Shown: positions 4,870-33,415 of the stretch, piece by piece
Numbering within the stretch: the stretch's first letter is position 1
Layout: every line of letters begins with the position of its first letter
DNA from: a virus
Lineage: Duplodnaviria > Heunggongvirae > Uroviricota > Caudoviricetes
Direction: 5' to 3' (one strand)
Length of the DNA: 33,415 bases
IMG/VR virus record: IMGVR_UViG_2563366922_000004
Made by a program: the position numbers and the translations under genes
The notes under the pieces: model-generated
Database searches by the model: none
The model's input: only the letters and a program-made list of their open reading frames with translations
Told to the model about the DNA's origin: nothing

Positions 4870-5145
4870 ATGTCGATGTACACAACCGCCCAACTGCTGG
4901 CGGCAAATGAGCAGAAATTTAAGTTTGATCCGCTGTTTCTGCGTCTCTTTTTCCGTGAGAGCTATCCCTTCACCACGGAGAAAGTCTATCTCTCACAAAT
5001 TCCGGGACTGGTAAACATGGCGCTGTACGTTTCGCCGATTGTTTCCGGTGAGGTTATCCGTTCCCGTGGCGGCTCCACCTCTGAATTTACGCCGGGATAT
5101 GTCAAACCCAAGCACTTAGCATGGCTTTCTGAGGCTTTCGTGTAG
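4870..5145 (+). pseudogene. E: Major capsid protein E, 5' fragment: 82 native codons then 9 insert-derived codons (LAWLSEAFV) and stop
   Basis: MSMYTTAQLLAANEQKFKFDPLFLRLFFRESYPFTTEKVYLSQIPGLVNMALYVSPIVSGEVIRSRGGSTSEFTPGYVKPKH matches lambda E residues 1-82; similarity ends abruptly at 5115/5116. Confidence 0.9.
5107..5115 (+). repeat. Left att core copy CCCAAGCAC (attL side)
   Basis: Matches the right copy CCGAAGCAT at 16152-16160 in 7 of 9 positions; both lie exactly where lambda-E homology ends and resumes. Confidence 0.6.
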
Positions 5146-5227
5146 TTGCTGGTTTTTACACTTAATCTTTTGATAATAAAGAATAAGTTTATCTGGCGCT
5201 TTCACTGAATTTTCCTCGTTATCTGTG

Positions 5228-5263
5228 TGTTGCAATCATCTCTGTATTGCAGCTTGTATTGCT
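5228..5263 (+). promoter_or_regulatory. Cluster of TGT(A/T)TTGCA direct repeats upstream of int; candidate integrase arm-type sites
   Basis: tgttgcaa (5228-5235), tgtattgca (5243-5251), tgtattgct (5255-5263); the same TGTATTGCA motif recurs twice near the other end at 16043-16063. Confidence 0.4.
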
Positions 5264-5277
5264 TTTTGGGGCTAAAA

Positions 5278-6513
5278 ATGGCTGGCGAGAACAAACTGAG
5301 CGACAAAGCGCTTAAAGGATATCTGGGGAAACCCAGAGAAAAGCAGATCACCATTGCTGATGGAAAGGGGCTTTCTATTCGTGTGAGTACTAAAGGGGCT
5401 GTGAGCTTTGTTTTCTTCTACAGGTTAGCAGGTGGCCGGGCTGCTCCGGTCTGGCTAACGTTGGGTAAATATCCTGATATGTCACTCAAACAGGCAAGGG
5501 AAAAGCGCGACGAGTGCCGTGGTTGGTTGGCTGACAAACGTGATCCGCGTATCCAGATTAAGATTCAGGCTGAAGAACGCTTAAAGCCGGTCACAGTGGA
5601 GGATGCACTAAATTACTGGTATGAAAATTACTGTAAGGTGCGTCGTAAAACTCATGCTGTAACGCTTGGCAGATTTCGAAAGCATATCTTTCCCTATATC
5701 GGTCATTTGCCCGTAAATGACACTCACCTATATGAATGGCTGGACTGTTTTGACCGAATTAAACGTAATGCACCAGTTATGGCGGCGTATGTTTTTTCTG
5801 ACACTAAATTAGCTCTTCGTTTTTGTCGGGTACGCCAGTACGCGACGTGTGATGCTTTAAAGGATTTGCGCATGAGTGATGTGGGGCAGATTGCAGGTAA
5901 GCGGGATCGGGTTCTGGATGAAGCCGAACTCGGCCAGCTCTGGAAGGCAATTTTTGTCGAGCCTGATTTAAAACTAATGTCTGAATACACGCGAAAAATG
6001 TTTGTGCTTTGTACAGTATTTGGATGTCGAATGAGTGAAGCCCGATTATCAGAATGGAGCGAATGGGATCTCGAAAGTTGGGTTTGGACTGTACCAAAAG
6101 ATCACTCAAAAACTGGTGTTGAAATCGTCAGACCAGTACCTGAAATTCTACGACAGTGGGTAACGGATGTTCACGAAGAGACAAAACATACTGGTTATGT
6201 GCTGGGAAGTCTGCGAATTAGAGAAAGCGTAAGCAAGATTGGGGGGAAAATCGGTAAACGTTTGGGCCATGAAAAACAATGGTCACTACACGACCTTAGA
6301 AGAACGCTATCTACTCATCTAAGTGATCTCGGTGTTGAATTTTATGTAGTAGAACAACTGTTAGGCCATGCGCTACCTGGCGTGGCAGGTGTTTACAATC
6401 GGAGTAAGTTTATGGCTAAAAAACTGGATGCTCTGGAACTCTGGACTACATATCTCAATAGCATCGCAGGTGCTGATTCAAAAGTGACAATCCTCAAACA
6501 AAAGGCTGGTTAA
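5278..6513 (+). CDS. int: Tyrosine recombinase / integrase (P4-like), probable ATG start at 5278
   Basis: N-terminal arm-binding-like region (GKYPDMSLKQAREKRDE) and C-terminal catalytic motifs (HDLRRT, LLGH, GVYNRS); ORF track opens at GTG 5227 but the homologous N-terminus begins MAGENKLSDKAL. Confidence 0.88.
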   Translation: MAGENKLSDKALKGYLGKPREKQITIADGKGLSIRVSTKGAVSFVFFYRLAGGRAAPVWLTLGKYPDMSLKQAREKRDECRGWLADKRDPRIQIKIQAEERLKPVTVEDALNYWYENYCKVRRKTHAVTLGRFRKHIFPYIGHLPVNDTHLYEWLDCFDRIKRNAPVMAAYVFSDTKLALRFCRVRQYATCDALKDLRMSDVGQIAGKRDRVLDEAELGQLWKAIFVEPDLKLMSEYTRKMFVLCTVFGCRMSEARLSEWSEWDLESWVWTVPKDHSKTGVEIVRPVPEILRQWVTDVHEETKHTGYVLGSLRIRESVSKIGGKIGKRLGHEKQWSLHDLRRTLSTHLSDLGVEFYVVEQLLGHALPGVAGVYNRSKFMAKKLDALELWTTYLNSIAGADSKVTILKQKAG

Positions 6514-6514
6514 C

Positions 6515-6742
6515 ATGAAAAAAATGGCAATTGTTGATAAAAAGGGTCTGGAGTACATTCCTAACATTGATCGTATGATCCGTGAGAAAGAATGTCGGGA
6601 GCTAACCACTCTTGCGAACAGCACACGCTGGAAGCTGGAGAAGGAAGGAAAATTTCCTAAGCGGATCAAGATTGGCGCTACTGCGGTAGCTTACCGTCTC
6701 TCCGAAGTTCAGGCATGGATTAGGGGGGAATGGCGGACATAA
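6515..6742 (+). CDS. alpA: AlpA-family HTH transcriptional regulator / excisionase-like protein (75 aa)
   Basis: Small protein directly after int with an AlpA-like helix-turn-helix region (ATAVAYRLSEVQAWIRGE); typical int-alpA pair of P4-like elements and PICIs. Confidence 0.8.
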   Translation: MKKMAIVDKKGLEYIPNIDRMIREKECRELTTLANSTRWKLEKEGKFPKRIKIGATAVAYRLSEVQAWIRGEWRT

Positions 6743-6778
6743 ATGTTGTAGTAAATTGTTATATAAAAGGGTGTAAGC

Positions 6779-7654
6779 ATGGCTACTCGAAAAAAAAATA
6801 GCGTAGAAATGAAAACTGTTTGTGAACTAATCATATCAAGAGATGATATGAAAGATAAAATTCAAGACAGAATTCAAAAAGGATTATTACTCCTACAGAA
6901 AAGCATAAATAACAATAGTGACTTGGAGCTGTTTAATGCTGATTACAGGAAATGGAGTGATTTTAATGCTGAGCTACTGAAGCGTAGTTTCACAAATGAT
7001 GATTTCAAAGAAGAATATGAAGGTGGGGCATTTGGTGTTATTTCATTGTACGAGACTTCCTTGGGAGAAAAAATCAGTGAGGCTACGCGTAAACTCCAGA
7101 GTAAGATAAGAAAACTAGAGTCGATTATGGAGCGACTGGAGTTAATTCCTATATCTTCCAAAGTTGTTGAAGAAAATATTGAAGTACCTCAGAGTTCAGC
7201 GGTAAAAACCAAAAAGGTATTCATTGTTCATGGAAGAGATGAAATATCAAAAACCAACTTAGAAGTGTTTTTAAGAGAAATTGGCTTAGAACCTATTGTT
7301 CTCCATAGGCAAGCTGATGTAGGTCAGACAGTGATTGAGAAATTTGAAGCAAATAGTGATGTTGGTTTCGCATTCATTCTTCTCACACCTGATGAGATCG
7401 CTTATTTATTGCCGCAAGACTCTTTACCTGATAATGAAAGAGAAAAGGAGTTACGTGCACGACCAAATGTAATGTTTGAATTTGGTTATTTCGTAGGGAA
7501 ATTAGGTCGTTCTAAGGTTTGTTGTCTATACACAGGTGATGTAGTGATTCCAAGTGATTTGAATGGTCTTATTTATAAAAAATTCAATTCTTCTATTGAA
7601 GAAGTAGCATATAGCATTATTAAAGACTTGCGAGCTACTGGTTACGCAGTTTAG
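6779..7654 (+). CDS. Two-domain protein: N-terminal coiled-coil-like region plus C-terminal TIR-like domain; candidate defence effector
   Basis: C-terminal half has the motifs I recall for bacterial TIR-like (COG4271-type) proteins: VFIVHGRD...LLTPDE...RARPNVMFEFGYFVGKLGR; the gene and its flanks are strongly AT-rich compared with neighbours. Confidence 0.55.
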   Translation: MATRKKNSVEMKTVCELIISRDDMKDKIQDRIQKGLLLLQKSINNNSDLELFNADYRKWSDFNAELLKRSFTNDDFKEEYEGGAFGVISLYETSLGEKISEATRKLQSKIRKLESIMERLELIPISSKVVEENIEVPQSSAVKTKKVFIVHGRDEISKTNLEVFLREIGLEPIVLHRQADVGQTVIEKFEANSDVGFAFILLTPDEIAYLLPQDSLPDNEREKELRARPNVMFEFGYFVGKLGRSKVCCLYTGDVVIPSDLNGLIYKKFNSSIEEVAYSIIKDLRATGYAV

Positions 7655-7683
7655 TAAATTCTTTGAACTAAAAATCTGCATAG

Positions 7684-7716
7684 ATATAGAGCCATTCGAG
7701 ATAAATGGCTCTATAT
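7684..7716. terminator. Perfect 13 bp inverted repeat with 7 nt loop between convergent genes; likely bidirectional terminator
   Basis: ATATAGAGCCATT-cgagata-AATGGCTCTATAT read directly; sits between the stop of 6779-7654 (+) and the stop of 7730-7909 (-). Confidence 0.5.
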
Positions 7717-7729
7717 GAAATATTATCTG

Positions 7730-7909
7730 TTAAATTTTGACTTCATATCCGCGTTGCTGTAGTTCTTTGCGAATAATCCTTTTAATCCAGGCTGCTAAAG
7801 ATTCGTCTCCATCTACTTGCTGTGCTTGCTCCATCAACTCCCTCAACTCAGGATCTAACCGAAACTGGAACGGAGGATTACCACGTCTTTGATTTTTGTG
7901 TGTTGACAC
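7730..7909 (-). CDS. Small Arc/MetJ-type ribbon-helix-helix DNA-binding protein (59 aa, GTG start); not in the ORF track
   Basis: Manual minus-strand translation gives (V)STHKNQRRGNPPFQFRLDPELRELMEQAQQVDGDESLAAWIKRIIRKELQQRGYEVKI, with a beta-strand then two helices as in Arc; start codon overlaps palindromes. Confidence 0.5.
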   Translation of the reverse strand: MSTHKNQRRGNPPFQFRLDPELRELMEQAQQVDGDESLAAWIKRIIRKELQQRGYEVKI

Positions 7910-7957
7910 GTCAATTACACCCGATGTAATGTGTTAATGTGTGATGACACATTACAT
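7903..7957. promoter_or_regulatory. Divergent control region: palindrome TTGAC-AC-GTCAA (7903-7914) and 10 bp inverted repeat ATGTAATGTG / CACATTACAT (7924-7933 / 7948-7957); candidate operator and promoter
   Basis: Inverted repeats read directly; TTGACA at 7903-7908 is a plausible -35 for the rightward operon; located between the RHH gene (-) and the 8040 operon (+). Confidence 0.35.
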
Positions 7958-8039
7958 ACGTGTTTAGGAAAATGCAACGCCTCGACGTGCGGGAACACCA
8001 TCGAGGCGTCTAACCAACCCGTTAAATGAGGTAACGATT

Positions 8040-8405
8040 ATGGCTGGAACACAGCATACCCAAACTCACCCTAAATTTATATACACCTTTCTGGCACTAC
8101 ACCACGACCGCATGGCAGATGGAGCAACTACGGTACATGTAGCCGCTGACACGCTGGTTGATGCCCGCAAGATGGTTAAGGAGATGGGCTATACTGCGGC
8201 TTTCTGGAAAGGGCGTGAAGAAAACACGCTGTTTATTCAGAAATGCGAAAACAATTTCATCTGGCGTTTTATCGCCCTGAGCACCGCACAACCGCGCGTG
8301 ATTCACATCGTGGCCACCAGCGAACAGGAAGCACGCCAGCAATCCCCGGCTGGCTGCGTGATGGTATTCGCCGCCCGTATTCGTCAGGGGGTATGCCATG
8401 CCTGA
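8040..8405 (+). CDS. Hypothetical protein; C-terminal part resembles Icd-like (cell-division-inhibitor-like) small proteins of P4-like elements
   Basis: C-terminal segment FIWRFIALSTAQPRVIHIVATSEQEARQQ...VFAARIRQG resembles the Icd-like pattern from memory; GAGG Shine-Dalgarno about 9 nt upstream of ATG 8040; first gene of a + operon. Confidence 0.45.
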   Translation: MAGTQHTQTHPKFIYTFLALHHDRMADGATTVHVAADTLVDARKMVKEMGYTAAFWKGREENTLFIQKCENNFIWRFIALSTAQPRVIHIVATSEQEARQQSPAGCVMVFAARIRQGVCHA

Positions 8406-8718
8406 TATGTCAAATTACCAGTACCTGATTAATCCGCATTTTAACTGTGAGCATGATATTGCTAAAAAGGTTTATTCCGCTGCGGATGGGGCTACTGACA
8501 ATATATCAATGGCTGTTGCGTCAATTGGTAGCCTGATGTGGCATGCGTCAGAAAATGAGGACTATGACGAAAAGGCTATGCGCATTGATATGGGTAATAT
8601 CGGTTTGTTACTGGCAATGCTTGGGCAGTTTGATATTTCGTTACGGTGCACCATTGAAAATGCCACAGATGCATTAAATGCCATAAAGAAAGCGAATACT
8701 GATTCAAATCGGGGATAA
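8398..8718 (+). CDS. Hypothetical protein (106 aa)
   Basis: ORF with ATGCCTGA start/stop overlap with the upstream gene (translational coupling); no recognisable family. Confidence 0.45.
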   Translation: MPDMSNYQYLINPHFNCEHDIAKKVYSAADGATDNISMAVASIGSLMWHASENEDYDEKAMRIDMGNIGLLLAMLGQFDISLRCTIENATDALNAIKKANTDSNRG

Positions 8719-8724
8719 ATAATC

Positions 8725-9024
8725 ATGAGAACATATTTATCTGGCTTGACTGCCAGCGGTTATGCACACCCCAAAATTATCCCCGGCGCTATTTATCTGG
8801 ATAAGAACGGTAACAGAGTAACGGTAAAAGAACTGATGTTTGACCGTGTGTATTTTATTCGTGATGGCTATTCATTTCATAGTTCGCTGAACGTGGAGAT
8901 CTTTATTAGCAGATTCAGGCGGGAAATCCCGCTTTCCAGAAATAACCATGTGTCATGTATGGATGTTGATAAAAAACTACAGGAACTGAAAAACATGATT
9001 GCCGCGTGGAGAGAGCAGAAATGA
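8725..9024 (+). CDS. Hypothetical protein (99 aa)
   Basis: ORF in operon context immediately upstream of the primase gene; no recognisable family. Confidence 0.45.
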   Translation: MRTYLSGLTASGYAHPKIIPGAIYLDKNGNRVTVKELMFDRVYFIRDGYSFHSSLNVEIFISRFRREIPLSRNNHVSCMDVDKKLQELKNMIAAWREQK

Positions 9025-10838
9025 AAAAAGCGCCAAATTTAAAACACCAGCCGCGTGACAAAATGACGGAAGTCATCATTTTTGCGGGTAGTGATGCGTG
9101 GGCACATGCGAAACAGTGGCAGGAACAGGACGGGCGACTGGCTGGCGATAACGTGCCACCTGTCTGGCTTGGAGAGCAACAACTTGCCGAACTGGACAAC
9201 CTGCAAATCGTACCGGACGGACGCTATCGCGTGCGTCTCTATCAGGCGGGGTTATTGCGTCCGGGGCTTGTTAATACCATCGGGCAGAAACTGGCAGTGG
9301 CAGGTGTCAGGGATGCTGATTATTACCCTGAAGGAATGCACAGCCAGAAACGGGAGAACTGGCGCGAATATCTGGAACGTGAACGGGCAGAGCAGGCGGA
9401 AAAGAAAAAGGTAGTTGAACTGCCTGTAAAGAAAAAAGAGCGGGTAAAAGACGATAACGCTTCATCACTGGCGCTTAACCAGATGGGAGCAAGTCAACGC
9501 GGCGAAGTTCTCCTGGCACATTATGGCGGTGAACTGGCGATTCATGCTGACTCTGACACTGTTCACCATTACAACGGCGTTGTATGGGAGCCAGTACAGG
9601 ATAAAGAATTACAGCGAGCTATGGCACAGATTTTCATTGATGCGGAGATCAGCTATTCGCAGAACGCCATTAAATCGGCGGTCGATACCATGAAGTTAAG
9701 TTTGCCTGTAATGGGGAATACAGCCCGTAACCTGATTGGATTCAGTAACGGGGTATTTGATACCAGAACAGGTAATTTTCGGGAGCATAACAAAAACGAC
9801 TGGTTGTTAATTGCCAGTGAATTACCTTTCAGCCCACCAGCAGAGGGGGAAACGCTGGCAACACATGCGCCGAATTTCTGGAAGTGGTTACGCCGTTCGG
9901 TGGCTGAGAATGACCGCAAGGCGGATCGCGTACTGGCTGCATTATTCATGGTGCTGGCGAACCGGTACGACTGGCAGTTATTCATTGAGGTAACAGGTCC
10001 AGGGGGAAGTGGTAAAAGCGTGATGGCGGAGATTTGCACCATGCTGGCGGGTAAGGCCAACACAGTATCGGCAAGCATGAAGGCGCTGGAAGATGCAAGG
10101 GAACGCGCGTTAGTGGTTGGCTTTTCGCTGATTATCATGCCGGATATGACCCGCTACGCTGGTGATGGGGCAGGGATTAAGGCTATTACAGGCGGTGACA
10201 AGGTGGCAATTGACCCGAAACACAAAGCCCCCTACTCAACGCGTATTCCGGCAGTAGTGCTGGCGGTTAACAATAACGCCATGTCATTCAGTGACCGCAG
10301 CGGGGGGATCTCACGTCGTCGGGTGATATTCAATTTTTCGGAAGTTGTACCGGAGAACGAACGCGATCCAATGCTGGCGGAAAAAATAGAAGGTGAGTTG
10401 GCGGTAGTGATTCGCCATCTGCTTACACGGTTTGCTGACCAGGACGAAGCCAGACGCCTGTTATATGAGCAGCAGAAATCTGAAGAAGCACTGGCGATAA
10501 AGCGAGAGGGGGATTCGCTGGTGGACTTCTGCGGCTATCTCATGGCGTCGGTAATGTGTGATGGCCTGTTAGTGGGTAATGCTGAAATTGTGCCATTCAG
10601 CCCACGCAGGTATCTCTATCATGCCTATCTGGCTTATATGAGGGCACATGGGTTTGGTAAACCTGTAACACTGACGCGCTTCGGTAAAGATATGCCGGGG
10701 GCAATGGCGGAATATGGCAGGGAGTATATGAAACGGAAAACGAAGCACGGTTTGCGTTCAAACGTGACACTGACGGAGGAATCAGAAGACTGGATGCCAT
10801 CATGTGTATCGGTCACTAATGACGATAGCAAAAATTAA
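9006..10838 (+). CDS. Replication protein: primase / SF3-type helicase (P4-family), start 9006 or 9021
   Basis: Walker A motif VTGPGGSGKS and Walker B-like SLIIMPD; 610 aa; immediately followed by an iteron array. Confidence 0.82.
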   Translation: MERAEMKKAPNLKHQPRDKMTEVIIFAGSDAWAHAKQWQEQDGRLAGDNVPPVWLGEQQLAELDNLQIVPDGRYRVRLYQAGLLRPGLVNTIGQKLAVAGVRDADYYPEGMHSQKRENWREYLERERAEQAEKKKVVELPVKKKERVKDDNASSLALNQMGASQRGEVLLAHYGGELAIHADSDTVHHYNGVVWEPVQDKELQRAMAQIFIDAEISYSQNAIKSAVDTMKLSLPVMGNTARNLIGFSNGVFDTRTGNFREHNKNDWLLIASELPFSPPAEGETLATHAPNFWKWLRRSVAENDRKADRVLAALFMVLANRYDWQLFIEVTGPGGSGKSVMAEICTMLAGKANTVSASMKALEDARERALVVGFSLIIMPDMTRYAGDGAGIKAITGGDKVAIDPKHKAPYSTRIPAVVLAVNNNAMSFSDRSGGISRRRVIFNFSEVVPENERDPMLAEKIEGELAVVIRHLLTRFADQDEARRLLYEQQKSEEALAIKREGDSLVDFCGYLMASVMCDGLLVGNAEIVPFSPRRYLYHAYLAYMRAHGFGKPVTLTRFGKDMPGAMAEYGREYMKRKTKHGLRSNVTLTEESEDWMPSCVSVTNDDSKN

Positions 10839-10850
10839 ACTTATGGAATA

Positions 10851-11075
10851 ACTGTTCACCACTGTTCACCCTGTCATAAATATCTTTTATATCAGTATAT
10901 TATAGGGTGAACAGTTATTTATGAACTGTTCACCAAACTATTCACTGTTCACCTTTTTGATTGTTTATTGAGCTTCAAGGGTGAACAGTGGTGAACAGTT
11001 GGTGAATAGTTTTTGTGAAACTGTTCACCCCTTAACATTATGAATTAAAAGAGAAAATATCAAAAGGTGAACAGG
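10851..11075. repeat. Iteron-type replication origin: about 10 copies of CTGTTCACC / GGTGAACAG in both orientations with an AT-rich centre
   Basis: Copies read directly at about 10852, 10862, 10906, 10926, 10945, 10979, 10990, 11000 (variant GGTGAATAG), 11021 and 11066; directly downstream of the primase gene. Confidence 0.7.
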
Positions 11076-11125
11076 TGAAGGGTTAAAACGCAAAAATTTT
11101 AATTTACTGCTGTGAGATAAAGCCT

Positions 11126-11371
11126 ATGACAGCGAAGCACACAAAAAAATCACAATCGCACGCCCTTGATTTGACGGAACACTGGTTAAGGGTGTCGATA
11201 AAAATCATTGACCGCAACGCCGGGGAAGGATATGCGAAAGCACATCCCGAACTGATTAGCGCATTCATGACAACGGCAGCTGCAAACTTTGCCACGCTGA
11301 CAGAACGGGAGATTGCCGAAGCGGAACAGGTGACAACCATCAACGTTAAAACCGGAGAGCAGACAGCATGA
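11126..11371 (+). CDS. Hypothetical protein (81 aa)
   Basis: ORF whose stop overlaps the start of the downstream SSB-like gene (ATGA); no recognisable family. Confidence 0.35.
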   Translation: MTAKHTKKSQSHALDLTEHWLRVSIKIIDRNAGEGYAKAHPELISAFMTTAAANFATLTEREIAEAEQVTTINVKTGEQTA

Positions 11372-11790
11372 CAGCACAGATAGCGGCTTACGGACGGCTG
11401 GTGGCTGACCCGCAGTTAAAGACCACCAGCAAGGGTACACAAATGACGATGGCGAGTATGGCGGTCCCCCTTCCGTGCAGCCAGGCAGATGACGGAACGG
11501 CGCCGATGTGGTTATCCGTCCTGGCGTTTGGCAGACAGGCCGACGCACTGGCAAAACACCACAAAGGCGAACTGGTGAGCGTGGCGGGTAACATGCAGGT
11601 AAGCCAGTGGACAGGCCAGAACGGCGAAACGCGGCAGGGCTGGCAGGTTATCGCAGACAGTGTAATCAGTGCCAGAACGGCGCGACCGGGCGGCAAAAAA
11701 GGTCAACAGGGCCAGGCTACTGACGCACTGAACAGGGCAAAACAACAGTCGGGGAATGATGATCCGTACGGCGATAATATACCGTTTTAA
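11368..11790 (+). CDS. ssb: Single-stranded DNA-binding protein (SSB-like, 140 aa)
   Basis: OB-fold-like N-terminal region and acidic C-terminal tail ending DDPYGDNIPF, resembling the E. coli SSB tail DFDDDIPF. Confidence 0.65.
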   Translation: MTAQIAAYGRLVADPQLKTTSKGTQMTMASMAVPLPCSQADDGTAPMWLSVLAFGRQADALAKHHKGELVSVAGNMQVSQWTGQNGETRQGWQVIADSVISARTARPGGKKGQQGQATDALNRAKQQSGNDDPYGDNIPF

Positions 11791-11807
11791 ATTCTGCAAA
11801 TAAAAAA

Positions 11808-11836
11808 ATGCCGGAAGAAAATAGATTTTCCGGCAT
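11808..11836. other. 9 bp stem hairpin (ATGCCGGAA...TTCCGGCAT) preceded by an A7 run; possible terminator after ssb
   Basis: Inverted repeat read directly. Confidence 0.3.
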
Positions 11837-12001
11837 GCTACATAAATCCCGACCAAAGGAAGTAAATACATTAACACGAATTATCAGCACTGAAGTTGTC
11901 ACGGCATATTTTATACAACATTGCACTTGGTTGCATGTATTCGCATAGCAGACATCGGTAATAGAATATATTCACAATTATTTGTAATGAATGTAAAGAG
12001 G

Positions 12002-13048
12002 ATGAGTATGGTTGATTTATATTCGCCTACACAGCTTGTGCAGGTGGCTAATGCTGAAGATGTGCAAAAAAAATTAAATGCGTTGTTTACCAGTTTGTTT
12101 TTCACTCGCTCGGTAATGTTTGAATCGAGAGACATTATTCTTGATACGATCGACGATCCAAATATCCCGATCGCGGCGTTTTGCTCTCCTATGGTGGGCA
12201 GTAAAGTTTCACGAGATGAGGGATACGAATCAAAAACAATTCGCCCTGGCTATATGAAACCGAAAAGCAGCATTGATCCAAATAAGTTAGCTGTGCGCCC
12301 TGCTGGTGTGTCACCTGAGCAATACAATGCTTTTGGGGCGCGTAATATTAAAGTTAAACAGGCGATTGTAAATCAGGCTAAAGCTATTCGTACACGTATT
12401 GAATGGCTTGCTGTTCAGGCAATCACAACGGGGAAAAATATCATTGAGGGCGATGGTATTGAACGTTATGAGCTGGACTGGAATATAAAACCACAAAATA
12501 TCATCACTCAGTCTGGCGGTACTGAGTGGTCAGGTAAGGATAAAGAAACTTTTGATCCAAATGATGATATTGAGAGCTACGCAGAATTTAGTGAGGGCGT
12601 CACTAATATCATCATTATGGGCGGTAATGTATGGAAGAAATACCGTTCATTCAGAGCGATAAAAGAGGCTCTGGATACCCGTCGTGGTTCTAATTCCGAA
12701 CTGGAAACGGCCCTTAAAGACCTTGGTGATTCGGTGAGTTTTAAAGGGTATATGGGCGATGTTGCGATTGTTGTTTACAGCGGGCGTTATACCGACGAGG
12801 ACGGAACTGAAAAACATTTCCTTGATCCTGATTTGATGGTGCTTGGCAATACGGCTCTTCAGGGGATTGTCGCTTATGGCGGTATTCAGGATCCGGAGCT
12901 AATCCGGATGGGGCTGACTAAAGCCGAACTTGCACCGAAAAACTATATTGTGCCTGGTGATCCGGCTATTGAATATGTGCAGACACATTCAGCACCACAG
13001 CCAATACCGGCCCGTATCAATCGTTTTGTTACCGTTCGCATTGGCTAA
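12002..13048 (+). CDS. Insert-encoded major capsid protein, diverged homolog of lambda gpE (about 349 aa)
   Basis: MSMVDLYSPTQLVQVANAEDV... aligns along its length with lambda E (shared motifs ITQSGGTEWS, LDTRRGSNSELETA, GDVAIVVYSG) but is clearly diverged; start chosen by analogy with lambda E (MSM...), ORF track opens at 11921. Confidence 0.85.
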   Translation: MSMVDLYSPTQLVQVANAEDVQKKLNALFTSLFFTRSVMFESRDIILDTIDDPNIPIAAFCSPMVGSKVSRDEGYESKTIRPGYMKPKSSIDPNKLAVRPAGVSPEQYNAFGARNIKVKQAIVNQAKAIRTRIEWLAVQAITTGKNIIEGDGIERYELDWNIKPQNIITQSGGTEWSGKDKETFDPNDDIESYAEFSEGVTNIIIMGGNVWKKYRSFRAIKEALDTRRGSNSELETALKDLGDSVSFKGYMGDVAIVVYSGRYTDEDGTEKHFLDPDLMVLGNTALQGIVAYGGIQDPELIRMGLTKAELAPKNYIVPGDPAIEYVQTHSAPQPIPARINRFVTVRIG

Positions 13049-13058
13049 GGGGGGAGCA

Positions 13059-13400
13059 ATGGCTACTCATTACACTGAACTCATGGCTGGCACTGAAGCA
13101 CTGGTTACTACGCTGGGGATATTTTCAGCTAATAAAGGGGTAATTCCTGCATTTACGCCACTGATGCAGGAAGATACAACAGGTGCACTGGTGGTATGGG
13201 ATGGTACGAGTGCAGGTAAAGCTGTTTATGTTTCCGCTGTACAACTCGATACAGCGAAAAAAACACAGGCTCAGGTCTATAAGACAGGTGTCTTAAATGT
13301 TGATGCTCTTAACTGGCCTGAGTCAGTAAAAGAACTGTCAGTAAAGGTTGCAGCGTTTGTTGGCTCAGGTATTTCTGTTCAGCCGCTGGCTCGTGTGTAA
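13059..13400 (+). CDS. Insert-encoded head decoration protein, diverged homolog of lambda gpD (113 aa)
   Basis: MATHYTELMAGTEALVTT...ALVVWDGTSAGKAV...YKTGVLN parallels lambda D ([13 protein letters not shown]...YKSGTF); start ATG 13059 preceded by GGGGAG. Confidence 0.78.
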   Translation: MATHYTELMAGTEALVTTLGIFSANKGVIPAFTPLMQEDTTGALVVWDGTSAGKAVYVSAVQLDTAKKTQAQVYKTGVLNVDALNWPESVKELSVKVAAFVGSGISVQPLARV

Positions 13401-13411
13401 AGGGGGATACA

Positions 13412-13795
13412 ATGCAGAATCATTACAATGACCTTAAGCCAATTGCCGAAATGATGTATCCGGATCCAGCAGTAGAGGAATTAAAGGCTATTGCTGACAA
13501 AATGCGTTTAAGCGAGCGTCTTGTTGATATGAATCAGGTGATGGAACTTACAACCCTGAGTCGTCGTACACTGCTAAACCTTGAAGCACGTGGAGAGTTC
13601 CCCGAACGCGTGCAGGTTACGGAAGGGCGTAAGGCCTGGTATTTAAGCGAAGTGATCGACTGGATAAACAATATTCCGCGCGCTTCTGAATATTGCCGCG
13701 TACCTGTCCCAAAAAAGCCAGATGCGGCGCTATGCCTCAAGATTGATCGTGTACGCCGCAATGCACGGGATGGTCGCTATAAGCTGATTGGTTGA
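13412..13795 (+). CDS. HTH protein (AlpA/MerR-like winged helix region), immediately upstream of cos; possible packaging accessory or late regulator
   Basis: Central segment MELTTLSRRTLLNLEARGEFPERVQVTEGRKAWYLSEVIDWINN resembles AlpA-type HTH; function not assignable from sequence. Confidence 0.45.
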   Translation: MQNHYNDLKPIAEMMYPDPAVEELKAIADKMRLSERLVDMNQVMELTTLSRRTLLNLEARGEFPERVQVTEGRKAWYLSEVIDWINNIPRASEYCRVPVPKKPDAALCLKIDRVRRNARDGRYKLIG

Positions 13796-13839
13796 TGAAA
13801 TTAGGGCCCGTTCTGGCTGGCGGGTCCTTTCCGGCGATC

Positions 13840-13890
13840 CGGCAGGTTACGGGGCGTCAGGCGCGCGGGTTTTCGCTATTTATGAGCATT
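13840..13890. promoter_or_regulatory. cos site of the insert (cosN-like): GTTACG-GGGCGTCAGGCG-CGCGGGTTTTCGCTATTTATGA
   Basis: Flanking bases match my recollection of lambda cosN (GTTACG / CGCGGGTTTTCGCTATTTATGA) while the 12 nt between them (13852-13863) differs from lambda's GGGCGGCGACCT; lies just upstream of a Nu1-like gene, as in lambda. Confidence 0.6.
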
Positions 13891-14011
13891 TTAAGGGGAC
13901 TGGTGGTGGTTTTGTTGTTCGCTATATCTGTATGAATAATAAGAGAAAAATACAATCAATACACCAACCTGAAACAGTAATTAAGTTGTGGTATCAATGA
14001 AATTACACCTG

Positions 14012-14539
14012 ATGAACAAAAAAAACATGGCAAAAAGTTGCCGTGTAAGCGCCACTGCGTTCGATAAGTGGGGAGTGATTCCCGTCGAGCGTAAGGGCCG
14101 TGAGGCGTTCTATGATGTTGCCAGTGTAATAGATAATCGGGTTAACAATGCAATCAGCCAGATTACAAACGAAACGGGCGATATTGATGACGATGAACTT
14201 TTACGCGTCAGGATCAGATTACTGACAGCACAGGCAGAGGCGCAGGAGCTTAAAAACGAGCGCGAACGCGGCGACGTTATTGATACAGAGTTTTGTATGT
14301 ATGTTCTTTCCAAACTGGCGAGTCAGATTTCATCTATCATGGACAGCCTGCCGCTTACCATGCAAAGGCGCTTCCCACAGATGACTCCGGCTATGCTGGA
14401 TGGACTTAAAAAGGAAGTGGCTAAAGCCTGTAATGCCAGTGCCGGCGTTGCTGACAACCTCCCACAGATACTGGCTGATTATCTGATGGAAAGTACAGGA
14501 AACGTACCGGATAAGTTGCAGCTGAATAAGGATAAGTAA
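14012..14539 (+). CDS. Terminase small subunit, Nu1-like, with divergent N-terminal DNA-binding region (start 14012, or 13997/14027)
   Basis: C-terminal two-thirds parallels lambda Nu1 (RLLTAQAEAQELKN...TEFCMYVLSKLASQISSIMDSLPLTMQRRFP vs lambda RLTRAQADAQELKN...TAFCTFVLSRIAGEIASILDGLPLSVQRRFP); N-terminus differs. Confidence 0.78.
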   Translation: MNKKNMAKSCRVSATAFDKWGVIPVERKGREAFYDVASVIDNRVNNAISQITNETGDIDDDELLRVRIRLLTAQAEAQELKNERERGDVIDTEFCMYVLSKLASQISSIMDSLPLTMQRRFPQMTPAMLDGLKKEVAKACNASAGVADNLPQILADYLMESTGNVPDKLQLNKDK

Positions 14540-14550
14540 CGTAGTACGCT

Positions 14551-14826
14551 ATGACTGAATCCGAACTACTGAAAGTAATCTGCCATGCTGGTGGAGTCAG
14601 CCACCAGCATGACGAACAGACCACGCAGCCGGGCAGTGTCACCGCTGAAAATTACGCTCGTGTGGTTGCTGAGGTTATGTGGCGTGACGGTATAGAACTG
14701 AACGGACAGGATTGCTTAGTCATCCGCACCAAAGTGCTGGCTATACTGGCAGCTAGGCGGAGGCAGGGACAACGCCAGAACGTTGCATCGTACCAGTGGA
14801 AGAAGCCTGACAGACTGCGGCGATAA
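14551..14826 (+). CDS. Hypothetical protein (91 aa)
   Basis: ORF directly downstream of the small terminase gene; no recognisable family. Confidence 0.4.
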   Translation: MTESELLKVICHAGGVSHQHDEQTTQPGSVTAENYARVVAEVMWRDGIELNGQDCLVIRTKVLAILAARRRQGQRQNVASYQWKKPDRLRR

Positions 14827-15122
14827 CTCTTTGATTTTCTCGACGGCCCCAAAATGGGCCTTACCATAGCCAGCTAATAAATGAGCAAGCCTCAAAAGTG
14901 AGGTTTGTGGCCGTTTGGCCTATTCATATGCTAACTCGTTGATATTCCTGACGACGCAAATTTACGCCTTGTGGCTGGTAGTCGAATTGCAAATTTGCAA
15001 CTCAACTATGAAACTACAGGTAGTTTGGGTAGTAAAAGCAACACACTGATTTTGGGGCTTCTTCGCGATACCTAATATTATGGTATCGGTGGAAGAGATA
15101 TCGTTTCTCATAGGTTAGCACC

Positions 15123-15142
15123 GAGGGCGGAGTTCCGCCCTC
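15123..15142. other. Perfect inverted repeat GAGGGCGGA-gt-TCCGCCCTC in the ORF-free spacer downstream of the HEPN gene
   Basis: Read directly; no clear U-run on either strand, so terminator function is uncertain. Confidence 0.3.
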
Positions 15143-15228
15143 ATCGAAAAATTGCTTACGAGTCGTCAAAATAAATTAATCGACTGAGTATAATGATTAA
15201 CTAATTGCTCGTGTTACTTCATTATACG

Positions 15229-15990
15229 TTATTTCCCATCTTTAAGGTTTAACCAAGTGTTAATTAAAAAAAGAGCCATTGAGCCTGATAAATTTACTGC
15301 AAGTTCGGCATGCCTTGGGGATGGCTTAATTGATGAGCTGTTCGTTCCATGTGCATCACCGAGTTTATTACGAAGAGTACCTAACCCATTTACAACTGCA
15401 GAACAACCGCCGAGAATTTGTTTGAAGATATTTTCAGTATGTTGGTCGGCAGATAGGTTAAGTTCTTTTGAAAGAGTTTTATAAAGCTCTGACATTTCAA
15501 TATTTTTATTATTATACTGAATGCCCATATCATCAAGAATGTGTTTGCAAACTGTTTCAAGAAGTGTTCTTGCGGAGGTTATCGCACCATCCGGATCTGT
15601 ATGGCGCCGTTCAAGTGCTTTTATCCAAACGGCGTGGACTCCATCCTCGTTAAACTTTCTTAATACATCAGATATGTCTTCATCCGCTGGAGCTTTATTT
15701 TTCCCTTCTAGATAGTCCAGCATCGGCTGAAATGCCTTATAAATCAAATCTCTCCGGGGGGCATACTTTTCAGTCTTTTTTATAAATCCCCAAAATTCTT
15801 TTAGTGAGCGATTAGTTCTCACAAACTCTGGTAATAGCTGATGTAAAGGAGGATTTTGTAAGAAATATGTTCTTAGAAGCAAATAATCATTATTAGCTTC
15901 ATCCTGGGCTCCTGTAGCTCTTGCAATTAGTATGTTTTGAAGCGCTACTGCGCGCTCTAGGTCATTTTGAAGGGTATCTATAATATTCAT
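15229..15990 (-). CDS. HEPN-domain protein of the Abi_C (abortive infection C-terminal) type, 253 aa
   Basis: Contains R-x6-H motif in LRNKLGDAHG preceded by ...ITSARTLLETVCKHILDDMGIQY...LYKTLSKELNL...ENIFKQILGGCSAVVNGLGT, matching my recollection of Abi_C; only minus-strand gene in the insert besides the RHH; AT-rich. Confidence 0.65.
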   Translation of the reverse strand: MNIIDTLQNDLERAVALQNILIARATGAQDEANNDYLLLRTYFLQNPPLHQLLPEFVRTNRSLKEFWGFIKKTEKYAPRRDLIYKAFQPMLDYLEGKNKAPADEDISDVLRKFNEDGVHAVWIKALERRHTDPDGAITSARTLLETVCKHILDDMGIQYNNKNIEMSELYKTLSKELNLSADQHTENIFKQILGGCSAVVNGLGTLRNKLGDAHGTNSSSIKPSPRHAELAVNLSGSMALFLINTWLNLKDGK

Positions 15991-16042
15991 AACAAATCTT
16001 TATTCACTTCATTTGTGGGTTGATAATTGAATGGTTTGTACA

Positions 16043-16063
16043 TTGATTTCTGTGTATTGCAGT
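16043..16063 (+). promoter_or_regulatory. Two TGTATTGCA direct repeats near the right end; candidate integrase arm-type sites
   Basis: Same 9-mer as at 5243-5263 near the left end; 12 bp spacing. Confidence 0.4.
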
Positions 16064-16151
16064 GTGTATTGCAACATAGCCATTCAGGTAGAGATTATGC
16101 TCTATTTTTCCTCTTATATCATTCACATACTTACACCATTGACTCATGTAG

Positions 16152-16160
16152 CCGAAGCAT
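16152..16160 (+). repeat. Right att core copy CCGAAGCAT (attR side; E codons P-K-H)
   Basis: Direct repeat partner of 5107-5115; immediately followed by E codon 83 (gaa gtg aat = EVN). Confidence 0.6.
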
Positions 16161-16940
16161 GAAGTGAATCCGCAGATGACCCTGCGTCGCCTGCCGGATG
16201 AAGAACCGCAGAATCTGGCGGACCCGGCTTACCGCCGCCGTCGCATCATCATGCAGAACATGCGTGACGAAGAGCTGGCCATTGCTCAGGTCGAAGAGAT
16301 GCAGGCAGTTTCTGCCGTGCTTAAGGGCAAATACACCATGACCGGTGAAGCCTTCGATCCGGTTGAGGTGGATATGGGCCGCAGTGAGGAGAATAACATC
16401 ACGCAGTCCGGCGGCACGGAGTGGAGCAAGCGTGACAAGTCCACGTATGACCCGACCGACGATATCGAAGCCTACGCGCTGAACGCCAGCGGTGTGGTGA
16501 ATATCATCGTGTTCGATCCGAAAGGCTGGGCGCTGTTCCGTTCCTTCAAAGCCGTCAAGGAGAAGCTGGATACCCGTCGTGGCTCTAATTCCGAGCTGGA
16601 GACAGCGGTGAAAGACCTGGGCAAAGCGGTGTCCTATAAGGGGATGTATGGCGATGTGGCCATCGTCGTGTATTCCGGACAGTACGTGGAAAACGGCGTC
16701 AAAAAGAACTTCCTGCCGGACAACACGATGGTGCTGGGGAACACTCAGGCACGCGGTCTGCGCACCTATGGCTGCATTCAGGATGCGGACGCACAGCGCG
16801 AAGGCATTAACGCCTCTGCCCGTTACCCGAAAAACTGGGTGACCACCGGCGATCCGGCGCGTGAGTTCACCATGATTCAGTCAGCACCGCTGATGCTGCT
16901 GGCTGACCCTGATGAGTTCGTGTCCGTACAACTGGCGTAA
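16161..16940 (+). pseudogene. E: Major capsid protein E, 3' fragment (codons 83-341, beginning EVNPQMTLRRLPD...)
   Basis: Translation matches lambda E from residue 83 to the C-terminal ...FVSVQLA; 82 + 259 = 341 codons, the full length of lambda E. Confidence 0.9.
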
Positions 16941-32831: not shown

Positions 32832-33415
32832 TGGCATTCAGAATGAGTGAACAACCACGGACCATAAAAATTTATAATCTGCTGGCCGGAACTAATGAAT
32901 TTATTGGTGAAGGTGACGCATATATTCCGCCTCATACAGGTCTGCCAGCAAACAGCACCTATATTGCACCGCCAGATATTCCTGCTGGCTTTGTGGCTGT
33001 TTTCAACAGTGATGAGGCATCGTGGCATCTCGTTGAAGACCATCGGGGTAAAACGGTTTATGACGTAGCGTCAGGGGGCGAGTTATTTATTTCTGAACTC
33101 GGTCCGTTACCGGAAAATGTTACCTGGTTATCGCCGGAAGGGGAGTTTCAGAAGTGGAACGGCACAGCCTGGGTGAAAGATGCAGAAGCAGAAAAACTGT
33201 TCCGGATCCGAGAGGCGGAAGAAATAAAAAACAGCCTGATGCAGGTAGCCAGTGAGCATATTGCGCCACTTCAGGATGCTGTAGATCTGGAAATCGCAAC
33301 GGAGGAAGAAACCTCATTGCTGGAAGCCTGGAAAAAGTATCGGGTGTTGCTGAACCGTGTTGATACATCAACTGCACCTGATATTGAGTGGCCTACGAAC
33401 CCTGTCAGGGAGTAA
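32831..33415 (+). CDS. tfa: Tail fibre assembly protein Tfa (194 aa); stop codon is the last 3 bases of the window
   Basis: [44 protein letters not shown]... matches lambda Tfa; ATG overlaps the stf stop (ATAATGG). Confidence 0.85.

What the first reader, a model, noticed from the sequence alone, without database searches (positions are those of the whole stretch)
6743..7730. AT-rich cargo islet 1: single-gene TIR-like domain protein
The 291-aa protein at 6779-7654 has a coiled-coil-like N-terminal half and a C-terminal half with motifs I associate with bacterial TIR-like (COG4271-type) domains: VFIVHGRD, LLTPDE and RARPNVMFEFGYF. The gene is strongly AT-rich compared with its neighbours and sits between the int-alpA module and the regulatory region, closed off by a perfect 13 bp hairpin. 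TIR and TIR-like domains are recurrent NAD-depleting or signalling effectors in anti-phage systems, and satellites are known to carry defence cargo. The N-terminal partner domain is unassigned, so this could be an uncharacterised single-protein defence system.
Basis: partly seen in the sequence, partly recalled or inferred. Interest (0 to 1): 0.75.

Follow-up and report, generated by a model that had tools for sequence, protein, structure and literature searches.

The report
Satellite-borne single-gene TIR defence candidate
A phage satellite lodged inside a prophage's capsid gene carries one AT-rich gene for a TIR-type, probably NAD-destroying, enzyme fused to a small helical domain; it looks like an anti-phage suicide switch, belongs to a family already listed as an untested defence candidate, and is a solid but unsurprising find.

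Summary
The ORF at 6779-7654 (+) encodes 291 aa, carries the three quoted motifs, and has the lowest GC of any gene in the element (0.35). It is followed by a perfect 13-bp hairpin at 7684-7716.

The C-terminal half is a clear CAP12/Pycsar-type TIR domain (Pfam PF10137, E=1.2e-33). The four active-site residues defined in the TIR-STING cryo-EM structure align to R228, N230, E234 and D260, and all four are invariant in 61 diverse relatives. The N-terminal half is a confidently predicted four-helix bundle (pLDDT 93), not a coiled coil, and has no informative relative.

The whole protein matches PADLOC family PDC-S35 (E=7e-67), one of 145 published but untested "phage defence candidates", and PHROG 16442 (function unknown). 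No neighbour gene is conserved, so it acts as a single gene.

The carrier is a known type of helper-embedded PICI ("11capE") inserted in a lambdoid major-capsid gene. The slot after alpA holds other cargo in sister elements.

Best reading: a stand-alone sensor-effector NADase that aborts infection. The domain assignment is shown. The NADase activity, the trigger and the defence phenotype are inferred. It is a new member of a known kind, of moderate interest.

The parts
6779..7654 (+). CDS for the 291-aa TIR-domain protein (WP_000235578.1), a member of PADLOC PDC-S35 and PHROG 16442
   Evidence: ORF; RefSeq annotation; PADLOC E=6.9e-67 covering residues 39-291; PHROG 16442 E=3.8e-133 over the full length
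6779..7183 (+). N-terminal domain (residues 1-135): predicted four-helix bundle and putative sensor or oligomerisation module. It diverges faster than the TIR domain.
7184..7213 (+). Low-confidence, poorly conserved linker (about residues 126-145)
   Evidence: pLDDT <50 at residues 130-142; mean identity 19% among close homologues
7214..7654 (+). CAP12/Pycsar-type TIR domain (residues 146-291), with R228, N230, E234 (putative catalytic Glu in FEFG) and D260 (putative residue that completes the neighbouring subunit's active site)
   Evidence: PF10137 E=1.2e-33 on residues 146-270; alignment to SfSTING chain 7un8, mapped onto residues named in PMC9402430; 100% conservation in 61 diverse members; Foldseek top hits are TIR-STING, probability 1.0
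7684..7716 (.). Perfect 13-bp inverted repeat (7-nt loop) between the convergent TIR and Arc-like genes; probable non-canonical bidirectional terminator
   Evidence: Stem-loops of different sequence lie at the equivalent position in L015, L016 and L009. Not called by the consensus terminator scan.
6734..7975 (.). Exchangeable cargo and regulator segment of the satellite. Homology with E. coli sister elements stops at 6733 and resumes at about 7974-7987. In Citrobacter the break lies at 7644, which separates the TIR gene from the regulator.
   Evidence: blastn breakpoints; alternative contents
5278..6742 (+). int-alpA integration module immediately upstream. The TIR gene starts 36 bp after alpA on the same strand. 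No sigma-70-like promoter was found in the 380 bp upstream of the start codon, so it is probably co-transcribed.
7730..7909 (-). 59-aa Arc-like / YlcI-YnfO-type small repressor, convergent with the TIR gene; the start of the satellite's regulatory region
   Evidence: PHROG 228 Arc-like repressor, E=1.6e-5; annotation
5114..16160 (+). Carrier element: an ~11-kb helper-embedded PICI (11capE type) inserted in the lambda-E-like major capsid gene (fragments 4870-5115 and 16152-16940)
   Evidence: element type described in PMC10111431
15229..15990 (-). Second AT-rich cargo gene at the opposite end of the satellite: an AbiJ-like / Abi_C protein (a separate system, listed for context)
   Evidence: PADLOC AbiJ E=2.2e-21; Pfam Abi_C E=1.3e-23; GC 0.382

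Best explanation
The gene encodes a stand-alone, single-polypeptide anti-phage sensor-effector carried as exchangeable cargo by a helper-embedded PICI satellite.

The C-terminal CAP12/Pycsar-type TIR domain is an NAD+ glycohydrolase that is inactive as an isolated subunit. By analogy with TIR-STING, an active site forms only when TIR domains pack against each other, so that D260 of one subunit completes the pocket of its neighbour (R228, N230, catalytic E234).

The N-terminal four-helix bundle replaces the STING, SAVED or cNMP-binding sensor of the CBASS and Pycsar effectors. It is proposed to recognise a phage-derived cue directly, most likely a phage protein, and to drive oligomerisation. 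NAD+ then collapses and the infected cell stops supporting phage growth (abortive infection). That protects the clonal population, and with it the satellite and its helper prophage, from competing phages.

Shown here: gene, domain identity, conserved active-site residues, family membership, single-gene organisation, mobile and cargo status.
Inferred: NADase activity, oligomerisation-dependent activation, direct sensing by the N-domain, defence phenotype.
For: TIR identity:
- PF10137 E=1.2e-33.
- Nearest solved relatives are Cap12/TIR-STING and PycTIR.

Catalytic competence:
- The gap-free alignment to SfSTING, read with the residues named in PMC9402430, gives R78=R228, N80=N230, E84=E234 and D110=D260.
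- All four are 100% conserved in 61 members that average only 43% identity in the TIR domain.
- Conservation of the D110 equivalent, which in SfSTING acts from the opposite dimer mate, argues for assembly-dependent activation.

Defence role:
- Full-length hit to PADLOC PDC-S35, a family nominated because members sit embedded in BREX, DISARM or type I R-M loci.
- Neighbours of 25 diverse homologues include type IIG and type I R-M, PbeA, PtuA, HEC-02 and other PDC proteins.
- The gene is AT-rich relative to its host in Escherichia, Klebsiella, Citrobacter, Pseudomonas and Aeromonas.

Cargo status:
- It sits in a slot that holds other genes in sister satellites.
- The satellite also carries an AbiJ-like gene.

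Single gene:
- No neighbour recurs in 28 loci, apart from a Pseudomonas-only NTPase.

Sensor-like N-domain:
- It is a confidently folded bundle.
- It evolves faster than the TIR domain: 51% against 78% mean identity in close homologues.
- In 37 of 150 cluster representatives it is replaced by unrelated N-termini of similar length.

Precedent for the logic:
- In single-gene DUF4062/TIR-like systems (Evangelion, Swarozyc), a small auxiliary region is reported to determine the trigger.
Against: - No experiment on this family was found. PDC families are explicitly described as untested or unvalidated.
- The full-length AF2 model is only moderate (pLDDT 76, pTM 0.46), so the relative placement of the domains and any autoinhibition are unknown.
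- The N-domain gives no functional clue.
- The defence-neighbourhood result has no background control.
- Some homologues sit among housekeeping genes, for example Aeromonas between a CxxCxxCC-domain gene and the succinyl-CoA synthetase genes.
- No promoter was detected directly upstream, so the conditions of expression are unknown.
- The gene is co-oriented with the helper's late operon, so read-through expression could serve the satellite or helper life cycle rather than defence.
Confidence: 0.6

Rival explanations
1. The TIR protein is a toxin or addiction module, or a life-cycle factor, serving the satellite itself. It might stabilise the HE-PICI, or modulate host metabolism or helper timing during induction, with the adjacent 59-aa Arc-like protein or helper late transcription controlling it. 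Under this reading it is not a defence against foreign phages.
For: - The gene lies 36 bp downstream of int-alpA on the same strand as the helper late operon, with no promoter detected upstream. PMC10111431 proposes that helper late transcription reads into the embedded PICI.
- The TIR gene and the 59-aa gene are retained together in the E. coli and Klebsiella copies.
- The TIR gene has persisted at this slot in HE-PICIs of three genera while diverging to 76-89% identity.
Against: - Most family members are not in satellites at all and occur across many phyla.
- The slot is occupied by unrelated cargo in most sister satellites. About 37 of 293 E. coli genomes with the flanking backbone carry the TIR gene, so it is dispensable for the satellite cycle.
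- In Citrobacter the TIR gene is kept while the downstream regulator is replaced, which argues against an obligate toxin-antitoxin pair.
Confidence: 0.12
2. The TIR domain is a signal generator like Thoeris ThsB. It would make a cADPR-type or other NAD-derived messenger that activates an effector encoded elsewhere, rather than depleting NAD+ itself.
For: - TIR domains in Thoeris produce signalling molecules, and many new TIR-signalling configurations were recently reported.
- A Pseudomonas subclade has a conserved ~555-aa STAND-like NTPase directly downstream, which shows that the family can work with a partner.
Against: - The domain falls in PF10137, the family named for the CBASS Cap12 and Pycsar TIR effector domains, not in ThsB-type PF08937.
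- No effector-like partner is conserved next to it in 24 of 28 loci, and none is present in this satellite.
- PADLOC classes the family as single-gene.
Confidence: 0.08
3. [quoted passage not shown]
For: - Bacterial TIR proteins with helical N-terminal regions are known virulence factors. TirS is cited as such.
- Many carrier strains are from humans, poultry and livestock.
Against: - The family is spread over environmental Pseudomonadota, Bacteroidota, Campylobacterota, Firmicutes, cyanobacteria and even archaeal MAGs.
- The Pfam hit is PF10137 only.
- The genomic company is phage, satellite and defence genes.
Confidence: 0.03

Closest known systems
PADLOC PDC-S35 (single-gene 'phage defence candidate'; Payne et al. 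preprint 10.1101/2024.01.29.577857)
   Same: Full-length profile match: PDLC05005 E=6.9e-67, residues 39-291 on profile positions 10-257 of 264. A second sub-model (PDLC05004) also covers the N-domain. Single-gene organisation.
   Different: Nothing structural; this is a member. The family itself is only a prediction and is listed as untested. Its presence as cargo of helper-embedded PICIs was not found described.
CBASS Cap12 / TIR-STING (SfSTING; PDB 7un8, 9lmq)
   Same: Same TIR subfamily (PF10137). It is the best sequence and fold match among solved structures. Equivalents of R78, N80, catalytic E84 and trans-acting D110 are conserved. The likely shared logic is that NADase switches on only when TIR domains are packed by oligomerisation of the attached sensor domain.
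   Different: - Domain order is reversed: here the sensor is N-terminal and the TIR domain C-terminal.
- There is no STING domain.
- No CD-NTase is present in the element.
- The NCBIfam Cap12 equivalog scores 42 bits against a cut-off of 450.
- The sensor here is a 4-helix bundle with no nucleotide-binding signature.
Pycsar PycTIR effector (PDB 8jsj)
   Same: Same Pfam TIR family and a C-terminal TIR position. Weak but aligned match around the R-x-N-x-x-x-E motif.
   Different: There is no pyrimidine cyclase partner. The match is weak and restricted to the TIR region (PADLOC PycTIR 29.7 bits, PDB E=0.05).
Single-gene DUF4062/TIR-like systems (Evangelion, Swarozyc; bioRxiv 10.64898/2026.06.25.731849)
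   Same: Same design principle: one polypeptide in which a conserved TIR-like NAD-processing core is fused to a short, rapidly diversifying auxiliary region that determines the trigger. These systems are carried on mobile elements.
   Different: Different TIR-like family: no DUF4062 hit here, only PF10137. The domain order is opposite and the auxiliary fold is unrelated.
Helper-embedded PICI '11capE' (site E:Phage_cap_E:80; NAR Genom Bioinform 2023, PMC10111431)
   Same: The carrier element matches in several ways:
- about 11 kb
- integrated in, and co-oriented with, the lambda-E-like capsid gene
- gene order int, alpA, regulatory zone, primase/SSB, then its own capsid, decoration and small-terminase genes
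   Different: That paper does not discuss TIR, cargo or defence genes (0 hits for 'TIR' and 'cargo'). The TIR-bearing variant is a minority, about 37 of 293 E. coli genomes that share the flanking backbone.

Membership tests
Pfam PF10137 CAP12/Pycsar-type TIR domain | Profile score above the curated gathering threshold over essentially the whole domain | tested here: met
   116.1 bits against a cut-off of 24.7, E=1.2e-33, profile positions 1-118 of 119, residues 146-270
Pfam PF10137 CAP12/Pycsar-type TIR domain | Catalytic glutamate on helix alphaC plus the NAD-contacting Arg and Asn (SfSTING R78, N80, E84) | tested here: met
   The gap-free alignment to 7un8, with residue names from PMC9402430, gives R228, N230 and E234. 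All are 100% conserved in 61 diverse members.
Pfam PF10137 CAP12/Pycsar-type TIR domain | TIR (flavodoxin-like) fold | tested here: met
   The AF2 model shows alternating strand-helix elements at residues 146-287. The top seven Foldseek PDB hits are all TIR-STING, probability 1.00, about 150 aligned columns. Model confidence in this domain is only moderate.
Pfam PF10137 CAP12/Pycsar-type TIR domain | NAD+ glycohydrolase activity | not testable with these tools
   Needs an enzyme assay or NAD+ measurement in infected cells
PADLOC PDC-S35 (candidate single-gene defence) | Match to the family HMMs over most of the protein | tested here: met
   Five PDC-S35 models hit. The best is E=6.9e-67, covering residues 39-291.
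PADLOC PDC-S35 (candidate single-gene defence) | Functions without a conserved partner gene | tested here: met
   Neighbour ORFs from 28 loci were clustered. The only recurring family is a ~555-aa NTPase in 4 Pseudomonas genomes. In the window the flanking genes are satellite core genes.
PADLOC PDC-S35 (candidate single-gene defence) | Demonstrated protection against phage | not testable with these tools
   The family is listed among 145 untested candidates. No later test was found.
CBASS Cap12 (TIR-STING / CD-NTase-associated effector) | Cyclic-oligonucleotide sensor domain (STING or SAVED) fused to the TIR domain | tested here: not met
   The only non-TIR region is a 4-helix bundle with no STING or SAVED hit. 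The NCBIfam Cap12 equivalogs score 42 and 35 bits against a cut-off of 450.
CBASS Cap12 (TIR-STING / CD-NTase-associated effector) | Operon with a CD-NTase cyclase | tested here: not met
   No cyclase is annotated among the satellite or flanking prophage genes
Pycsar PycTIR | Adjacent pyrimidine cyclase (PycC) | tested here: not met
   No cyclase gene in the element. The PADLOC PycTIR hit is only 29.7 bits and confined to the TIR region.
Thoeris ThsB | ThsB-type TIR (PF08937) next to a ThsA-type effector | tested here: not met
   No PF08937 hit; no effector-like neighbour
Helper-embedded PICI, E:Phage_cap_E:80 type (carrier element) | [quoted passage not shown] | tested here: met
   The capsid gene is split at 5115 and 16152. 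The gene order is seen and matches the description in PMC10111431.

The most novel reading that the evidence does not exclude
The four-helix-bundle N-domain is a previously unrecognised direct receptor for a phage protein. Because the gene sits inside a helper-embedded satellite and is co-oriented with the helper's late operon, it may be tuned to spare, or be timed by, its own lambdoid helper while killing cells infected by competitors. That would be a helper-discriminating TIR immune sensor whose expression is wired in cis to the helper's late transcription.
Probability: 0.15. Interest if true: 0.65.

Novelty: new member of a known kind. Interest (0 to 1): 0.45.

Why it matters
If confirmed, this would turn an untested in-silico candidate (PDC-S35) into a validated single-protein TIR immune system.

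The family is very large and taxonomically broad:
- 4,658 hits among clusters at 90% identity.
- 903 representatives of clusters at 50% identity with E<=1e-30.
- Members from Proteobacteria to Firmicutes, cyanobacteria and archaeal MAGs.

The protein is also about the smallest imaginable sensor-plus-TIR design, a ~120-aa helical bundle followed by the TIR domain. That makes it a tractable model for how TIR NADases are switched on without a nucleotide second messenger.

It would also add helper-embedded PICIs to the satellites known to ferry defence cargo, alongside P4-like satellites and classical PICIs. The alpA-proximal slot would then be a place to look for further systems; the alternative occupants seen here are a 178-aa membrane-like protein and a DUF2971 protein followed by a SWIM-domain protein.

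It does not overturn any current view. TIR effectors, abortive infection by NAD+ depletion and satellite-borne defence are all established.

Tried and rejected
- The Foldseek search against AFDB50 was unavailable. The search against viral structures (BFVD) gave no hit at E<=1e-3.
- Cap12, PycTIR or ThsB membership: rejected. There is no sensor domain or cyclase, and scores are sub-threshold.
- An obligate two-gene system with the downstream 59-aa gene: rejected. Citrobacter keeps the TIR gene but swaps that gene.
- A conserved partner elsewhere: only a Pseudomonas-specific STAND-like NTPase was found.
- Own promoter: the consensus scan found none in the 380 bp upstream of the start codon. Manual inspection of the 36-bp gap found only poor -10-like AT-rich strings that would remove the ribosome-binding site.
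- Canonical intrinsic terminator: not called, although the hairpin is stable.
- Literature: searches for PDC-S35, WP_000235578, COG4271 and 'SfSTING E84A' returned nothing useful. The supplements held for the PDC preprint do not mention S35.
- Phage genomes: only distant TIR-only matches of 31-37% identity over part of the protein.
- Rfam: no RNA family in or near the gene.
Full report
**1. The observation**

The window is a lambdoid prophage head-tail region of E. coli. It is 100% identical over the queried stretch to strain 550 and about 30 other complete genomes.

The lambda-E-like major capsid gene is split into an N-terminal piece (4870-5115) and a C-terminal piece (16152-16940) by an ~11-kb insert.

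RefSeq annotates it as 'TIR domain-containing protein' WP_000235578.1.

Its GC content (0.349; GC3 0.267) is the lowest of 20 genes measured. Compare int 0.452, the whole insert 0.447 and the flanking prophage 0.563.

The 13-bp perfect inverted repeat lies at 7684-7696 / 7704-7716. It folds at -17.1 kcal/mol (z = -3.7). It sits between the TIR gene and a convergent 59-aa Arc-like repressor gene (7730-7909, minus strand).

- It lacks a canonical U-tract and the consensus terminator scan did not call it.
- A stem-loop of different sequence occupies the same position in the Klebsiella, Citrobacter and divergent E. coli copies, so the structure rather than the sequence is kept.

**2. What the protein is**

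The C-terminal half (residues 146-270) matches Pfam PF10137, 'CAP12/Pycsar effector protein, TIR domain', at E=1.2e-33 and 116 bits against a cut-off of 24.7.

Among solved structures, the nearest by sequence are Cap12/TIR-STING (9lmq, 7un8; E about 2e-5) and PycTIR (8jsj). By fold, the top seven Foldseek hits are all TIR-STING, with SARM1, plant TIR and SEFIR domains further down.

The alignment to SfSTING chain 7un8 is gap-free over 63 residues. The chain numbering is offset by 8 from the numbering in the SfSTING paper. The R-x-N-x-x-x-E spacing and the D110/D112/G113 positions confirm this offset. The residues that Morehouse et al. (PMC9402430) identify map as follows:

| SfSTING residue | Role in SfSTING | Residue here |
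|---|---|---|
| R78, N80 | contact the substrate | R228, N230 |
| E84 | catalytic | E234 (in FEFG) |
| D110 | contributed by the opposite TIR dimer mate to complete the active site | D260 (in PSD) |

In an alignment of this protein with 60 diverse full-length relatives (mean 43% identity in the TIR domain), these four positions are 100% conserved. The domain therefore looks catalytically competent. Retention of the trans-acting Asp suggests that, as in TIR-STING, activity depends on TIR-TIR packing.

**3. The N-terminal half**

A model of residues 1-135, built from 46 diverse sequences, is very confident (pLDDT 93.3, pTM 0.83). It is a compact bundle of helices 21-39, 46-70, 75-81 and 95-122, so this is not an extended coiled coil.

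- A profile search against PDB sequences found nothing below E=0.28.

The domain remains unassigned.

It evolves faster than the TIR domain. Among close homologues, mean identity is 51% for the N-domain, 19% for the linker and 78% for the TIR domain. Between two E. coli satellite alleles the N-domain and TIR figures are 69% and 95%.

In 37 of the 150 best cluster representatives, the same TIR domain is preceded by an N-terminus of similar length that is not detectably related. A conserved effector joined to a fast-changing partner is the usual signature of an immune sensor-effector.

**4. Family and prior knowledge**

The whole protein matches PADLOC PDC-S35 (best model E=6.9e-67, residues 39-291). 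[quoted passage not shown] The authors call them untested, and a later study excluded them as unvalidated.

The protein also matches PHROG 16442, function unknown, at E=3.8e-133.

The family is large:
- 4,658 hits in the database clustered at 90% identity.
- 11,053 representatives of clusters at 50% identity at E<=1e-3, and 903 at E<=1e-30.

It is also spread widely: Gamma-, Beta- and Deltaproteobacteria, Campylobacterota, Bacteroidota, Firmicutes, cyanobacteria, Deinococcota and archaeal MAGs.

I found no paper that tests it.

**5. Single gene or system?**

Neighbour ORFs from 28 loci of full-length homologues were clustered. The only recurrent neighbour is a ~555-aa STAND-like NTPase lying 3-42 bp downstream in four Pseudomonas species. 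Everywhere else the neighbours are unrelated.

In the window the flanking genes are satellite core genes.

The 59-aa repressor downstream is retained with the TIR gene in E. coli and Klebsiella. In Citrobacter it is replaced while the TIR gene stays; homology breaks at 7644. It is therefore not an obligate partner. The single-gene classification holds.

**6. Genomic setting**

The carrier is a helper-embedded PICI of the '11capE' type (site E:Phage_cap_E:80), described by the Williams group (PMC10111431).

- Gene order: int, alpA, a variable regulatory zone, primase/SSB, then its own capsid, decoration and small-terminase genes.
- It is inserted in, and co-oriented with, the helper's capsid gene.
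- That paper does not mention TIR or cargo.

About 293 of 5,426 complete E. coli genomes share the flanking backbone, but only 37 carry the TIR gene, all at >=99.7% identity.

In sister elements, homology stops at 6733, inside the alpA 3' end, and resumes near 7975. The interval holds other genes:
- a 178-aa membrane-like protein plus a 100-aa YlcI/YnfO protein, or
- a DUF2971 protein plus a SWIM protein.

TIR alleles at 89%, 79% and 76% identity occupy the same slot in HE-PICIs of Klebsiella oxytoca, another E. coli and Citrobacter amalonaticus.

A second AT-rich cargo gene, AbiJ-like with an Abi_C domain, lies at the other end of the element (15229-15990, minus strand).

Homologues outside satellites are also AT-rich relative to their hosts in Pseudomonas and Aeromonas. 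Several sit beside known or candidate defence genes: type IIG and type I R-M, PbeA, PtuA, HEC-02, PDC-S05, PDC-M11 and PDC-S59. No background control was run for this comparison.

**7. Mechanism proposed**

Shown:
- a catalytically equipped CAP12/Pycsar-type TIR domain
- a folded, rapidly diverging N-terminal bundle
- no partner gene
- mobile cargo status

Inferred:
- The protein idles as an inactive species.
- A phage-derived cue engages the N-domain and promotes higher-order assembly.
- TIR domains pack so that D260 completes the neighbouring active site.
- NAD+ is hydrolysed and the infected cell fails to yield phage.

Two sets of published work support this logic. One is the TIR-STING filament study. 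The other is the recent work on single-gene DUF4062/TIR-like systems, in which a short auxiliary region sets the trigger.

The unknowns are the trigger, the resting oligomeric state and the expression signals. No sigma-70-like promoter was found in the 380 bp upstream of the start codon. Co-transcription with int-alpA, and read-through from the helper's late operon as PMC10111431 proposes for these elements, are therefore both possible.

**8. Rivals**

- A role in satellite maintenance or the satellite life cycle (confidence 0.12). It is disfavoured by the mostly non-satellite distribution and by the dispensability of the slot.
- A Thoeris-like signal generator (0.08). It is disfavoured by the Pfam clade and the lack of an effector gene.
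- A eukaryote-directed virulence TIR (0.03). It is disfavoured by the environmental and archaeal distribution.

**9. Verdict**

The gene is not an unrecognised kind of system. It belongs to an already catalogued but experimentally untested candidate family, and its effector domain and carrier element are both of known types. I class it as a new member of a known kind.

What remains of value:
- a very common, minimal sensor-plus-TIR protein awaiting its first experimental test
- a conserved residue map that gives immediate mutants (E234A, D260A, R228A, N230A)
- the recognition that helper-embedded PICIs have an exchangeable cargo slot next to alpA

Interest: 0.45.

Noticed in passing
window 5114-16160 (capsid gene fragments 4870-5115 and 16152-16940): The whole ~11-kb element is a phage satellite integrated inside, and co-oriented with, the lambda-E-like major capsid gene of a lambdoid prophage. 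It matches the published helper-embedded PICI type '11capE' (E:Phage_cap_E:80; PMC10111431). It carries its own gpE-like capsid (12008-13048), gpD-like decoration (13059-13400) and Nu1-like small terminase (13997-14539) genes.
   Followed up: yes
window 15229-15990 (-): A second AT-rich cargo gene (GC 0.38) lies at the far end of the satellite. It encodes an AbiJ-like protein with an Abi_C domain (PADLOC AbiJ E=2e-21, Pfam PF14355 E=1e-23, PHROG 23253 function unknown), so the satellite probably carries two independent defence candidates.
   Followed up: partly
window 6734-7975; sister loci L011 3008-4430, L012 3008-4751, L013 5508-6902: The interval after alpA is an exchange hotspot among E. 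coli HE-PICIs. Alternatives to the TIR gene are a 178-aa membrane-like hypothetical protein plus a 100-aa YlcI/YnfO protein, or a DUF2971 protein (weak PADLOC PDC-S31 hit) plus a SWIM zinc-finger protein (weak PDC-S62 hit). None has a known function.
   Followed up: partly
L027 5919-7583, L028 5924-7582, L030 5885-7570, L038/L002 8923-10581: In four Pseudomonas species the TIR homologue is followed, 3-42 bp downstream on the same strand, by a conserved ~555-aa STAND-like NTPase (sub-threshold nSTAND1, AAA_16 and nSTAND3 hits). This may be a two-gene variant of the family.
   Followed up: partly
window 5243-5252 and 16053-16062: The 10-mer TGTATTGCAG occurs just inside both ends of the satellite, each time within a doubled 'TGTATTGCA...TGTATTG' arrangement. 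It probably corresponds to the doubled DNA motif that PMC10111431 reports as unique to HE-PICIs, and may be integrase arm-type sites.
   Followed up: no
window 7730-7909 (-): The 59-aa Arc-like (YlcI/YnfO-type) repressor convergent with the TIR gene is itself variable between sister satellites. Identity to the corresponding small genes is 52-95%, and other E. coli elements have an unrelated 100-aa version. This suggests different immunity or regulatory types.
   Followed up: partly
window 33174-33372 (+): A full-length Rfam IS009 match (RF02111, 227.8 bits against a gathering score of 117) lies near the 3' end of the window. It is unrelated to the finding.
   Followed up: no
phage records ON470582, ON470588, ON470579 (H103-H105) and OR850936 (H107): A few E. 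coli and Salmonella phage records encode TIR-like proteins that are 35-37% identical to the TIR half only. Related TIR domains with other N-termini therefore also occur in phage genomes.
   Followed up: no
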